Assembly (NCBI GenBank): GCA_965197725.1
Contig: CBDANQ010000054.1
Location: 1-64,000 of the forward strand
Origin: Longimicrobiales bacterium
Lineage (GTDB): Bacteria > Gemmatimonadota > Gemmatimonadetes > Longimicrobiales > Gaopeijiaceae
DNA length: 64,000 bases
Reading direction: 5' to 3'
Below are positions 30,001 to 33,000 of this stretch, one piece after another (the stretch's first letter is position 1; each line of letters starts with the position of its first letter). A program made the position numbers.

Positions 30001-33000
30001 ATGACGAACGACGCAATATCGGTTGCCCCACACGCCTACAAGGTGGTGCTCGAGACCGATCGTGTCCGTGTCCTGGAGTCGGCGTGGTGCTGCTGATCGA
30101 ACTGAAGTAGGACGACGGCCCTGACACATCGACCCCTATTGCCACTCCACCAACTCGAGATCAGTCGAGTCGTCAAACCCCTTGAACATCACCGACCCCA
30201 GAGACTTGAAGGCGACGTTCTTTCCAAGACAGAGGTCCCGGACCACTCTGGCGGTGACGATCTGATCGGGCTCCGCACCGTCGCAAATCCGCGATGTGAG
30301 ATTCACTGTGGAGCCGAAGAGTGCGTCTCCGTCTAGCACGGGTTCGCCGGCGCTGATGCCTATTCTAGCCCGTAGCCTCACGCCATCCGCCCGCTCCACG
30401 TTGTCCCTAGAAAACCCTCGTTGCATCGAGATCGCGCAAGTCACCGCAGCGTACGCAGACTCAAAGCTCGTAAGAAACCCATCCCCTGCCCGGTCGACCT
30501 CCCTGCCACCGTAATCCACGAGCGCCGTACGAACGATGTCCCGATACCGCCGAACCAGGCTGAGGGCCCCTGAGTCCCCAAGAGCCTTGGTGATGTCAGT
30601 GGAGCCGACCATGTCGACAAACAGGAGGGCCCGAAAAGCACTGTCCCGGACAGGCTCCCCCTCGGATGTCTCGGGATCATGCAGCCGTCCAAGAAACTGA
30701 GCGACGGTCGAAGGGTCGACCTCAATAACCTGATTCGGAATGAGTCCGTGGGCTTCGGCATGCATCTCGCGGACGGCACCCGCCGATGGAGCTTCGACGA
30801 GACAGAACGCGGTCCCCCGAGACTTGTCGTGCCAATAGGTAATCGCCTTGCAGGAATGGCGATCCTGGACCGCGACATCCAAATGATGCGCCTCGGCCAA
30901 CTCCTCAGCGGTCACTACTGTCCCAATTTCGTGGCGATCCATGAACAATGGCATTCCCGCTCCTCTTATCCTGGAGTGTTCCAATACCTGTGGCGTGAGA
31001 TTCTCTTCTGAAAACGAAAGAAAACAAGGGCTACTCCAGCGACACCCATATGGAGCCCTCGGACACGCGAACCGGGAAGATCTTCAGAGATTGTCGGTTC
31101 TTGCTCACATCTCCCAAGTGTTCCTGACCTACCGGCGTGCCATCAGCCGCCAAGGCTCCGGCCCACTGTCTTATCTCACCCGTCTCCAGGTCGAAACAGC
31201 TCTCGTGCCAGCGACAAATGATGGAGCCGTCATCTCCCACCTCACTATCGTTCAGCGGAAGGTGGAGGTGGGGGCAAGCATTGTTGATCGCATGAAGCCT
31301 GTCCGCCGTACGAATGAGGAGGATATCCAACTCCTCGAGTTCGACGACCTTGTGCGTGCCGACGGGCAATTCGGAGTCATCGAGAACGGGCATCCAGTCC
31401 AGGCCGGCATACCCGTGCTTCGTATCGTCTGGTGGTTCGACCTCGGCCTGGAGCGCCGCCACGGCCGATGGAGCCAGTCCCGCGATCTCGTATAGGCTCC
31501 GGCGCTCACTCGTCCCCGGCAGCTTTACGCGCACAAAATCCTCGATCGTCACGCTTTCCTTCACCACTTCATAAAGATCCTCGGAAATGAGTAAGCGAGT
31601 GTCGGCGGGCTTGTTGGCGGCCTCGATGCGGCTGGCGACGTTGATGGTCGCACCGACCCCAGTAAGCTTCTCCGTCTTGGCGGACCCCACGGTACCGATC
31701 ACGGCGGGGCCGTAATGCATACCGATTCCGACATCGAAGCTCTGGTCGTACATCGCCTCCATATAGGGCTTGAGGTGATCTACCGCATGGAGGATCTCCA
31801 CGGCGGCCTTCACGCCTCGCAGGGGCGCTTGAGGGTCGTCCTCGATACCGAAGAGGGCCATGACGCCATCCCCATAGAAGTCGACGATATAGCCGCCGTT
31901 GCGCTCGATGACATCGCCGACCTGGAAGAAGTAGCGATTCAGGATGAAGATGACGTCGTACGCCGACAGGGTTTCGGTCAGGGCCGTGAAACCACGTATG
32001 TCACAAAAGAGAACGGCGACGTTCTTGACGTCGCCGACACGCCCCAAGCGCTTCCGCGATAACTGGCTGGTGATCTCTAGATCCGCCTCGTCGAGCACTA
32101 GGCGTCGGAGCTTCACGTCACCGGCTACCCTGGTCTGACAAGCCAAGCGCGCCTCCGGCCCGAAGCCGAGTCGATCGGTGAGGGAACGTTCCAGGTCCGA
32201 GCGCTCGAGACAGTTCTCTAGTCCCTCCAGGATCCAAACACGGCAGGTGGAGCATCTGGCGTGGCCGCCGCACGCGTGCGCGTGCGCGATGTTCGCCCGC
32301 AGTATCGCTTCCAGAATTGTGTCGCCGTCCCTGACGTCGACTTCCTTCCGGTCGGGAAGGCAGGTGATTTTTGTCATCGGATAGTCGCCCACAACAGATG
32401 CACGTTGTGCGACGTTGATGTGTCACGCGGGTCATCATACTGCCATTTGAAAGGAAGGACGAACCATGCGCTCGTCGTGTCAGCAGGCCGATCGGGATAC
32501 GGTGTGCCCCGCCCCCCGACCGGCGTCCACTCAGAATCCACAACGCGAGCTTCCATCATGATCGTTGAGCCCGGCAGTACCCGAATCGGCTGGATTGGCC
32601 TAGGCGTCATGGGACGCAGCATGTGCGCTCACCTCGTCGACCGAGGCTTTTCGGCGACCGTCTATACGCGCACCCGGAAGACGGCCGATTCCCTCCTCGC
32701 GAAAGGAGCGACCTGGACAGACACGCCGAAGGCGGTGGCTGAGCAGAGCGACGTGGTGTTCAGCATCGTCGGGTTCCCGAGCGATGTGCGCGAGGTCGTC
32801 CTCGGGCCCGAGGGTGCCCTGGCTGGTTGCGAGCCTGGAAACGTGCTCGTGGACATGACCACCAGCGAGCCGTCGCTGGCGGTAGAGATCTACGAGGCGG
32901 CGAAGGCCAAGGGTGTGGCGAGCGTAGACGCTCCTGTGTCAGGTGGGGACGTCGGCGCGCGGGAAGCGCGTCTGTCGATCATGATCGGCGGGGACGCGGA

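What a model noticed while it worked through the whole genome (the two positions that open the first line are those of the whole stretch)
30136..32377. Class III nucleotide cyclase sandwiched between a plant-type [2Fe-2S] ferredoxin and a Rieske domain
g01881 (448 aa) is ferredoxin (CX4CX2C...C) - class III cyclase - Rieske (CPH...CxxH) in one chain, next to a second cyclase with an SCO4226-like domain. I read it as a cyclase whose cAMP/cGMP output is set by the redox state of two different 2Fe-2S clusters, a direct redox- or O2-to-cyclic-nucleotide transducer. No member of this widespread architecture appears to have been studied.
Evidence so far: Domains and motifs read in call 80. Of the 119 other best 90%-clusters (51-92% identical) 117 carry Fer2, Guanylate_cyc and Rieske families together; named ones are Alphaproteobacteria, Burkholderiales, Proteobacteria, Methylomirabilota, with generic names only. 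None of 9 papers holding three of 'adenylate cyclase', 'Rieske domain', '2Fe-2S', 'class III' describes it by title or abstract.
(Added by a program. Inside this text positions count along the whole contig: contig position 1 is position 1 of the stretch shown here. "Call 12" and the like, gene names such as g00115 and contig names such as C1 are that model's own, and its searches are not shown. The text may have been shortened before it was handed on; [...] marks where a part breaks off. The agent that wrote the report below was given it as the finding of a first reader that could run no searches.)

Follow-up and report, generated by a model that had tools for sequence, protein, structure and literature searches.

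The report
Soluble two-iron-sulfur-cluster nucleotide cyclase
This gene encodes a soluble enzyme that makes a cyclic-nucleotide signal and carries two different iron-sulfur domains, most likely a membrane-free variant of the redox-controlled rhizobial adenylate cyclase CyaC, so it is a new variant of a known design and not a wholly new one.

Summary
The architecture is real. P0001 (window 31031-32377, minus strand, 448 aa) is Fer2, class III cyclase and Rieske in one chain. All eight cluster ligands and the catalytic Asp/Asp/Asn/Arg are kept in 117-118 of 118 aligned relatives.

- The ferredoxin motif is CX5CX2C...C, the adrenodoxin/ISC type, not plant-type CX4CX2C.
- The neighbouring SCO4226-cyclase is a juxtaposition seen only in this genome, inside a variable slot. 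It was not found beside any orthologue examined.

The Fer2-cyclase half is 38% identical over 291 residues to Sinorhizobium meliloti CyaC. CyaC is a characterised redox/quinone-regulated adenylate cyclase with two haems b and a [2Fe-2S] cluster (PMC10463352, passages).

The best reading is a soluble CyaC-like redox-gated cyclase in which a Rieske domain takes the place of the dihaem membrane anchor.

The product is uncertain. The window's 14-member clade has Asp where adenylate cyclases have Lys and the guanylate cyclase Cya2 has Glu.

No paper on the three-domain form was found in six searches. Verdict: new variant of a known kind, moderate interest.

The parts
31031..32377 (-). Gene for P0001, 448 aa plus stop: Fer2 - class III cyclase - Rieske
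   Evidence: ORF list and translation. Pfam domains. Relatives are 447-449 aa and start M..I.CLPD, which supports the ATG at 32377 over the GTG at 32392.
32126..32356 (-). Fer2 domain (residues 8-84), adrenodoxin/ISC-type [2Fe-2S] site C36, C42, C45, C80
   Evidence: Pfam Fer2 2.4e-11. NCBIfam fdx_isc 1.9e-14, below its cut-off. PDB 1i7h 7.2e-12. All four Cys are kept in 118 of 118. The domain is homologous to the Fer2 domain of CyaC.
32030..32125 (-). Conserved linker (residues 85-116) between Fer2 and cyclase
   Evidence: R91, R92, L93, V94, D99 and G115 are invariant, and L95, D96, E97, S104, Q105, L106 are at least 90% conserved in 118 sequences. The segment is partly shared with CyaC (LD..L.I.TQL). 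In the model there is a helix at 97-103, followed by a stretch at 104-112 with pLDDT below 50.
31511..32029 (-). Class III cyclase catalytic domain (residues 117-289)
   Evidence: Pfam 2.9e-20. Best solved relative is Cya2, 2w01, at 1.5e-25 by sequence and Foldseek 1.4e-17 with TM 0.88. D126, D170 and N246 are kept in 118 of 118, and R250 in 117 of 118. Specificity positions are D166 and T239.
31040..31399 (-). Rieske [2Fe-2S] domain (residues 327-446), ligands C368, H370, C388, H391, with a conserved C-terminal extension
   Evidence: Pfam Rieske 4.2e-15 and Rieske_2 1.4e-10. Ligands are kept in 117, 118, 118 and 118 of 118. The nearest named families are Rieske-type ferredoxins of oxygenases (HcaC, AndAb) and NirD, all below cut-off. 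Best PDB match is 8jng at 5.8e-9. Stand-alone homologues of 116-128 aa share the extension.
30136..30954 (-). Neighbouring gene P0002/P0162: SCO4226-like domain plus class III cyclase (272 aa from ATG; an upstream TTG at 30984 would give 282 aa)
   Evidence: Pfam SCO4226-like 2e-17 and Guanylate_cyc 3.3e-9. It belongs to its own widespread family: 117 of 119 other best clusters carry both domains. It was not found beside any orthologue of P0001, and no SCO4226-bearing match was found in G002, G024 or G007.
28874..32541 (.). Variable slot holding HicB-like, DinB-like, P0002 and P0001, with lower G+C
   Evidence: In same-genus genome G002 the flanks (molybdenum hydroxylase and hydroxyacid dehydrogenase genes) lie 1950 bases apart on contig C2. 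Its P0001 orthologue (89% DNA identity) lies on another contig, C3. G+C is 0.575-0.61 here against about 0.65 in the flanks.

Best explanation
P0001 is a soluble class III (IIIb-like) nucleotide cyclase. Like its relatives, it probably works as a homodimer. Its catalytic rate is probably set by the oxidation state of two built-in [2Fe-2S] clusters.

The N-terminal adrenodoxin-type ferredoxin domain and the conserved linker after it are the same module that sits before the catalytic domain of S. meliloti CyaC. In CyaC, electrons from the quinone pool pass through two haems b, and cyclase activity follows the redox state. In P0001 the dihaem membrane anchor is missing. A C-terminal Rieske domain of the low-potential ferredoxin kind is present instead. 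I infer that it serves as a second, cytoplasmic redox input.

Shown here: the domains, the ligands, the intact catalytic residues and the homology to CyaC. Inferred: cluster binding, dimerisation, redox gating, the physiological electron donor or oxidant, and the product. The product is cAMP by analogy with CyaC for the Lys-bearing relatives. It is uncertain for the window's Asp166 clade.
For: - Three domains sit in one chain above Pfam cut-offs.
- Cluster ligands are kept in 117-118 of 118 relatives. Catalytic D126, D170 and N246 are kept in 118 of 118, and R250 in 117 of 118, so this is not a dead cyclase.
- P0001 residues 8-297 align to CyaC residues 255-539 at 38% identity, E 2e-56. CyaC has Fer2 at 266-331 and the cyclase at 362-543.
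- CyaC is described as redox-sensitive, with two haems b and a [2Fe-2S]2+ cluster (PMC10463352, passages read; PMC9552081, passage read).
- The linker between Fer2 and cyclase has six invariant residues.
- No oxygenase, reductase or other gene is conserved next to the family in 12 loci compared. This argues against a role as a dedicated electron carrier of a pathway.
- The genome has receivers for the signal: four cNMP-binding matches.
- The Fer2-cyclase module occurs with a 6TM-length N-terminal extension, alone, or with Rieske. This fits interchangeable input domains.
Against: - There is no experiment on any three-domain member.
- The window's clade has Asp166 where adenylate cyclases have Lys, so cAMP synthesis and even the level of activity are uncertain.
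- Forms with only one of the two iron-sulfur domains exist. Examples are the Fer2-cyclase proteins of about 305 aa (120 of 120) and the cyclase-Rieske forms in G007 and G131. The two clusters therefore need not cooperate.
- In CyaC the published emphasis is on the haems as the redox-sensitive element. The role of its [2Fe-2S] cluster in gating is not stated in the passages I read.
- The primary CyaC paper (Wissig et al. 2019, Mol Microbiol 112:16) is not held and was not read.
Confidence: 0.6

Rival explanations
1. Cluster-integrity sensor. The cyclase reports loss, damage or nitrosylation of one or both [2Fe-2S] clusters caused by O2, reactive oxygen species, NO or iron shortage, and not a reversible redox change.
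For: The data are the same as for the best explanation, and sequence cannot tell the two apart. The Rieske cluster has two His ligands, which from general knowledge makes it proton-coupled and reactive towards NO. An Atlas lead shows a sister architecture with a CDGSH (3Cys-1His, labile cluster) domain in the place of Rieske. This is a lead only and was not verified.
Against: The characterised relative CyaC is reported to respond reversibly to quinone or quinol and O2 (PMC10463352 passages). The CDGSH lead was not found in the 12 loci examined, the best of 41 matching genomes among 301 cyanobacterial genomes sampled.
Confidence: 0.2
2. Electron-transfer protein. The ferredoxin and Rieske domains carry electrons to an unlinked partner enzyme, and the cyclase domain is regulatory, vestigial, or regulates the transfer.
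For: The Rieske domain is most similar to ferredoxin components of Rieske oxygenase systems: HcaC 2.6e-9, AndAb 2.5e-8, and PDB 8jng methanesulfonate monooxygenase ferredoxin 5.8e-9. Stand-alone homologues of 116-128 aa exist.
Against: The catalytic residues of the cyclase are kept in 117-118 of 118, which is not expected for a vestigial domain. No oxygenase or reductase is conserved beside the gene in 12 loci. All named-family matches are far below their cut-offs.
Confidence: 0.08
3. Heterodimer with the neighbour. P0001 and the SCO4226-cyclase P0002 form a mixed catalytic dimer, like the C1/C2 halves of mammalian cyclases, that integrates redox and metal signals.
For: The two genes are adjacent on the same strand, 46-76 bases apart, and the terminator-like sites found lie inside the genes, not between them. 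Both carry Asp at the Lys position.
Against: Each protein has a full set of catalytic residues, so complementation is not needed. P0002 was not found next to any of 11 orthologous loci. No SCO4226-bearing match exists in G002, G024 or G007, which have P0001 orthologues. The pair lies in a slot that differs in same-genus genomes.
Confidence: 0.05
4. The window's Asp166 clade makes a nucleotide other than cAMP (cGMP or another cNMP), so it is a redox-gated guanylate-type cyclase. This concerns the product only and can hold together with any of the readings above.
For: D166 aligns with the Glu of the guanylyl cyclase Cya2 (2w01) and with the Lys of its engineered adenylate/guanylate form 6fht (entry titles). 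Cya2 is the best solved match. The clade of 14 is monophyletic (SH-aLRT 99) and has co-fixed changes at V165, Y168 and P224 around the pocket.
Against: The position changes at least 10 times on the family tree (K 54, N 43, D 14, S 4, A 3), which suggests weak constraint. From memory, Rv1900c (Asn at this position) remains an adenylate cyclase. Asp is shorter than Glu, and I know of no characterised cyclase with it.
Confidence: 0.3

Closest known systems
CyaC (SMc01818) of Sinorhizobium meliloti, a redox/quinone-regulated class III adenylate cyclase (Wissig et al. 2019, not read; described in PMC10463352)
   Same: A Fer2-type [2Fe-2S] domain, a conserved linker and a class III catalytic domain in the same order. 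Identity is 38% over 291 residues. Both have Thr at the second specificity position.
   Different: CyaC has a roughly 250-residue N-terminal six-helix dihaem-b membrane anchor and no Rieske domain. P0001 is soluble, starts at the Fer2 domain and ends with a Rieske domain. CyaC has Lys where P0001 has Asp166. The Cys6/Cys56 pair of the P0001 family is absent from CyaC.
Two-domain soluble Fer2-cyclase proteins (about 305 aa; Hymenobacter, cyanobacteria, Planctomycetota and others), uncharacterised
   Same: The same Fer2-cyclase module at 39-43% identity. On the tree they fall in the same strongly supported group as the three-domain family, apart from CyaC.
   Different: They have no Rieske domain, and no Rieske gene was found within about 6 kb in 9 such loci.
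Cya2 of Synechocystis (PDB 2w01), guanylyl cyclase
   Same: The closest solved catalytic domain: E 1.5e-25 by sequence, Foldseek TM 0.88 and 31-32% identity.
   Different: Cya2 has Glu/Gly at the two specificity positions where P0001 has Asp/Thr. It has no iron-sulfur domains.
Rieske-type ferredoxins of oxygenase systems (HcaC, AndAb, methanesulfonate monooxygenase ferredoxin 8jng) and NirD
   Same: The CXH...CXXH Rieske fold without the bc1-type disulfide cysteines. 8jng also shares the C-terminal W..P.PP..G..LG extension.
   Different: Scores are far below family cut-offs (37 bits against 150 for HcaC). The domain is fused to a cyclase, and no oxygenase lies nearby.
ThnA3/ThnY of Sphingopyxis granuli: a Rieske ferredoxin whose redox state acts as a regulatory signal (PMC4814904; only the search listing and the start of the abstract were seen)
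   Same: A precedent for a Rieske-type cluster used for signalling as well as catalysis.
   Different: It is a separate protein acting on a transcription regulator within an oxygenase pathway. It is not a fused enzyme domain.

Membership tests
Class III nucleotide cyclase (PF00211) | Match to the catalytic-domain profile above the gathering score | tested here: met
   73.1 bits against a cut-off of 21.9, at residues 117-289.
Class III nucleotide cyclase (PF00211) | Two metal-binding Asp residues and the transition-state Asn and Arg | tested here: met
   D126, D170, N246 and R250 are present. They are kept in 118, 118, 118 and 117 of 118 relatives. Positions were assigned from the alignment to 2w01 and recalled motif knowledge.
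Class III adenylate cyclase (substrate signature) | Lys at the first purine-specifying position, with Asp or Thr at the second | tested here: not met
   The window protein has D166, with T239 at the second position. Among 118 relatives the first position is K in 54, N in 43, D in 14, S in 4 and A in 3.
Class III guanylate cyclase (substrate signature) | Glu at the first position, with Cys or Gly at the second | tested here: not met
   The pair is D166/T239. Cya2 has Glu and Gly at the aligned positions.
Class III nucleotide cyclase | Active as a dimer with sites at the interface | not tested
   Inferred from the family only.
CyaC-type redox-regulated adenylate cyclase | A Fer2 [2Fe-2S] domain directly before the catalytic domain | tested here: met
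   38% identity over 291 residues spanning both domains, E 2e-56. Pfam on CyaC.
CyaC-type redox-regulated adenylate cyclase | A six-helix membrane anchor with the four-His dihaem-b signature | tested here: not met
   P0001 begins 7 residues before the Fer2 domain. There is no N-terminal extension.
CyaC-type redox-regulated adenylate cyclase | Activity responds to quinone/quinol or O2; the product is cAMP | not testable with these tools
   This needs biochemistry.
Adrenodoxin/ISC-type [2Fe-2S] ferredoxin | CX5CX2C...C ligand spacing | tested here: met
   C36-X5-C42-X2-C45-X34-C80. The best matches are fdx_isc, 1i7h and putidaredoxin.
Plant-type [2Fe-2S] ferredoxin | CX4CX2C...C ligand spacing | tested here: not met
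   The spacing is X5, not X4. The motif definition is recalled.
Rieske [2Fe-2S] domain (PF00355) | Profile match and CXH...CXXH ligands | tested here: met
   55.9 bits against a cut-off of 20.3. The motif is C368-P-H370 ... C388-R-W-H391.
High-potential bc1/b6f-type Rieske protein | A disulfide pair in the CXHXGC...CXCH motif | tested here: not met
   The sequence is CPHLHL...CRWHES. There is no Cys at the disulfide positions. The motif is recalled.
Rieske non-haem iron oxygenase alpha subunit | A catalytic mononuclear-iron domain after the Rieske domain | tested here: not met
   The protein ends 57 residues after H391, and there is no Pfam match to an oxygenase catalytic domain.

The most novel reading that the evidence does not exclude
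The Fer2 domain is a general redox transducer for class III cyclases. Different lineages have bolted different redox or gas input modules onto it: the dihaem membrane anchor in CyaC, the Rieske domain here, and possibly globin and CDGSH domains (Atlas leads, not verified). In the three-domain protein the two clusters, with different expected potentials, would give a three-state or redox-window response in place of a simple on/off switch. In addition, the window's Asp166 clade would have changed its product away from cAMP.
Probability: 0.2. Interest if true: 0.7.

Novelty: new variant of a known kind. Interest (0 to 1): 0.45.

Why it matters
CyaC is the only redox-regulated iron-sulfur cyclase that turned up in these searches, and it is a membrane haem protein that is hard to handle. 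A soluble 448-residue relative with the same Fer2-linker-cyclase core would make the transduction step from cluster to catalytic site accessible to spectroscopy and structure work.

It would also be a rare case of a Rieske centre used as a sensory input of a signalling enzyme. Full-length relatives occur in cultured rhizobia: Sinorhizobium psoraleae, Mesorhizobium hawassense, M. album, Rhizobium etli 8C-3 and R. gallicum R602sp. Genetics is therefore possible in organisms where cAMP signalling already matters for symbiosis.

The labile residue at the purine-specifying position (K, N, D, S or A) offers a natural series for studying substrate choice.

Tried and rejected
- **Fer2-Rieske contact.** Complex prediction of the Fer2 domain (1-100) against the Rieske domain (318-448) with two 2Fe-2S clusters returned no answer: ipSAE 0.00 in two runs, controls not run. 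It is not evidence either way.
- **Expression.** No RNA holder was listed for window 30100-32450.
- **Conserved neighbours.**
  - tblastn of ten window proteins against all loci found nothing shared.
  - All-against-all blastp of ORFs from 12 loci found nothing shared apart from the gene itself and same-genus Mesorhizobium synteny.
An HMM of the Rieske domain found none within about 6 kb of nine two-domain or CyaC-like loci: L009-L014, L017, L065, L094.
- **CDGSH and globin variants suggested by the Atlas.**
  - The 120 best relatives of a cyanobacterial two-domain form were all Fer2 plus cyclase.
  - Of 41 matching genomes among 301 cyanobacterial genomes sampled, the 12 best loci were read and showed no CDGSH motif.
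  - The globin form was not tested.
- **Naming the organism.** The listing of cluster members gave no names for the closest relatives.
- **Wissig et al. 2019.** The paper could not be read.
- **Old cyclase surveys.** PMC2447327 and PMC1183210 do not mention Rieske or ferredoxin domains. For PMC2447327 only about 20,600 characters were held for reading, against about 101,000 listed in the search index, so its blank is weak.
- **PMC10238741.** It was irrelevant.
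Full report
**What is there.**
- On the minus strand, window 31031-32377 encodes a 448-residue protein, P0001.
- Pfam places three domains, all well above gathering scores:
  - Fer2 at residues 8-84 (E 2.4e-11)
  - the class III cyclase catalytic domain at 117-289 (2.9e-20)
  - Rieske at 327-405 (4.2e-15), or Rieske_2 at 327-446 (1.4e-10)
- An AlphaFold2 model built on 118 relatives has mean pLDDT 85.8 and pTM 0.63. Only two stretches fall below pLDDT 50, at 104-112 and 314-317. These are the two inter-domain linkers.
- The downstream gene on the same strand (30136-30954 from the ATG used by the database entry P0162; an upstream TTG lies at 30984) is SCO4226-like plus a second class III cyclase domain.
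Of 119 other best clusters, 117 carry Fer2, Guanylate_cyc and Rieske, and the two exceptions are short.

**Corrections to the observation.**
- The ferredoxin ligands are C36-X5-C42-X2-C45-X34-C80. This is the adrenodoxin/putidaredoxin/ISC-ferredoxin spacing (motif definitions recalled), not CX4CX2C.
- The best NCBIfam match is ISC ferredoxin.
- The ferredoxins among the 60 PDB matches shown (of 70) include E. coli ferredoxin 1i7h, putidaredoxins and an adrenodoxin homologue.
- The Rieske domain has CPH...CRWH without the bc1-type disulfide cysteines.
- It scores best, but far below cut-offs, against the Rieske ferredoxins HcaC and AndAb and against NirD. Its best PDB match is the methanesulfonate monooxygenase ferredoxin 8jng.

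**Conservation.** I aligned 118 full-length family members. P0052 and P0088 were left out as truncated. Counts come:
- The four Fer2 cysteines are kept in 118 of 118.
- The Rieske ligands are kept in 117, 118, 118 and 118 of 118.
- The catalytic D126, D170 and N246 are kept in 118 of 118, and R250 in 117 of 118.
- The Fer2-cyclase linker holds six invariant residues: R91, R92, L93, V94, D99 and G115.
- An extra cysteine pair, C6 and C56, is present together in 107 of 118.

The protein therefore looks like a working enzyme with two occupied cluster sites.

**The closest known system.**
- A tblastn search of plasmid and chromid records hit the annotated cyaC of Sinorhizobium meliloti (annotation).
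- P0001 residues 8-297 align to CyaC residues 255-539 at 38% identity, E 2e-56.
- CyaC has Fer2 at 266-331 and the cyclase at 362-543, after an N-terminal stretch of about 250 residues.
- PMC10463352 (passages read) describes CyaC as a class III cyclase with:
  - a six-helix membrane domain binding two haems b
  - activity that responds to oxidation and reduction by quinones
  - a [2Fe-2S]2+ cluster, drawn in its model figure
- PMC9552081 and PMC13259868 (passages read) say the same about the haems.
- The primary paper (Wissig et al. 2019) is not held. My memory that it reports a binuclear Fe-S cluster and cAMP as the only product is recall.

**Family landscape.**
- Full-length three-domain genes were found in cultured rhizobia and MAGs at 40-51% identity:
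  - Sinorhizobium psoraleae, Mesorhizobium hawassense, M. album, Mesorhizobium sp. and Ensifer sp.
  - Rhizobium etli 8C-3 and R. gallicum R602sp
  - alphaproteobacterial and SAR116 MAGs
- They are sparse. In a sample of 201 genomes from the family of S. psoraleae:
  - three had a full-length match
  - four had partial or broken ones (G128 covering 1-377; G061 with two in-frame TGA; G131 covering 116-448; G150 with two fragments)
  - 62 had CyaC-length frames matching only residues about 7-290
- Among 41 genomes related to the window's genome (this count includes the unpublished G025, on which no claim rests), results were as follows:
  - full-length copies only in G000, G002 (88%) and G024 (65%)
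  - a cyclase-Rieske form lacking Fer2 in G007
  - a Fer2-cyclase form in G013
- Two-domain Fer2-cyclase proteins of about 305 aa are widespread. All 120 of the 120 best relatives of a cyanobacterial one have this form, and they occur in 41 of 301 cyanobacterial genomes sampled.
- On a tree of the Fer2-cyclase part (127 rows, quick IQ-TREE):
  - the three-domain proteins and six of the eight two-domain or CyaC-length forms added fall in one strongly supported group (SH-aLRT 100)
  - CyaC, the CyaC-like L017 and the truncated L011 lie outside it
  - long branches make the deep order unsafe
- The Protein Atlas lists further clusters in which the module is joined to a globin or a CDGSH domain. 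These are leads only. I did not find the CDGSH form in the 12 loci read, and I did not test the globin form.
- The Rieske domain alone has stand-alone homologues of 116-128 aa. They match its whole length at 32-44% identity, including a conserved C-terminal extension.

**Context.**
- No neighbour is conserved.
- DNA comparison with same-genus genomes shows that the Mo-hydroxylase genes and the dehydrogenase gene flanking the region are 1950 bases apart in G002.
- In the window those flanks are 3669 bases apart and enclose HicB-like, DinB-like, P0002 and P0001.
- G002's orthologue of P0001 (89% DNA identity) is on another contig.
- P0002 has no DNA match in four same-genus genomes.
- No SCO4226-bearing protein match was found in G002, G024 or G007.
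- G+C drops to 0.575-0.61 across the slot.

The pairing of the two cyclases is therefore local. P0002 belongs to its own wide family, in which 117 of 119 other best clusters carry both domains.

**Substrate.**
- D166 aligns with the Glu of the guanylyl cyclase Cya2 (2w01). Cya2 is the best solved match by sequence and by fold.
- D166 also aligns with the Lys of the engineered form 6fht.
- T239 aligns with the Gly of Cya2.
- CyaC has Lys and Thr at these positions.
- In the family, position 166 is K in 54, N in 43, D in 14, S in 4 and A in 3. It changes at least 10 times on the tree.
- The 14 Asp proteins form one clade (SH-aLRT 99), with V165, Y168, I195 and P224 fixed alongside.

The product of the window's protein cannot be read from sequence.

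**Mechanism.** I think the most likely reading (about 0.6) is a soluble CyaC-like cyclase gated by the redox state of its clusters, with the Rieske domain as a cytoplasmic input in place of the dihaem anchor. Forms with only one iron-sulfur domain exist. This suggests each domain can act on the cyclase alone, so two independent inputs are at least as likely as an obligatory Rieske-to-Fer2 wire. The rivals are a cluster-damage sensor, an electron carrier, a heterodimer with P0002 and a non-cAMP product. They are scored in their own sections.

**Literature.** Six full-text searches found no paper describing a cyclase with a Rieske domain. Subscription journals are mostly not covered.

Noticed in passing
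window 24041-24544: A segment of about 0.5 kb matches at least ten places in same-genus genome G002 at 83-84% identity. It is probably a multi-copy mobile or repeated element close to the variable slot.
   Followed up: no
window 25956-28852: A two-gene molybdenum hydroxylase: a small subunit with Fer2 and Fer2_2, and a 764-aa subunit with MoCoBD_1 and MoCoBD_2. It is conserved at 90-93% DNA identity in G001 and G002. No FAD subunit was looked for.
   Followed up: partly
window 28898-29221 and 29291-29800: A HicB-family antitoxin-like gene and a DinB-family gene lie in the same variable, lower-G+C slot as the two cyclases. The DinB gene's match in G002 is at a different place. No HicA partner was sought.
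   Followed up: no
P0001 residues 6 and 56 (window 32360-32362 and 32210-32212): Two extra cysteines in the Fer2 domain are conserved together in 107 of 118 family members, and CyaC has neither. They could be a disulfide switch or structural. This is unexplained.
   Followed up: partly
L093 8630-9877 (G007); G131 and G061: Some lineages carry cut-down copies. G007 has cyclase-Rieske with no Fer2 coding upstream. G131 matches only residues 116-448. G061 has two in-frame TGA codons.
   Followed up: partly
G000 contig C54, 70550-70798 (beyond the window): A cNMP-binding domain in a 986-aa open frame lies about 38 kb from the cyclases on the same contig. It is one of four cNMP-binding matches in the genome.
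   Followed up: no
L097-L107 (cyanobacterial loci): Cyanobacterial two-domain Fer2-cyclase proteins end in a tail of about 40 residues that is rich in basic and aromatic residues (for example ...WLQRLFGKF). It looks amphipathic and could be a membrane-association helix.
   Followed up: no
L001 950-3730 (Sinorhizobium psoraleae): A 926-aa ORF about 2 kb from the three-domain gene clusters with it by blastp, so it probably carries another cyclase domain.
   Followed up: no
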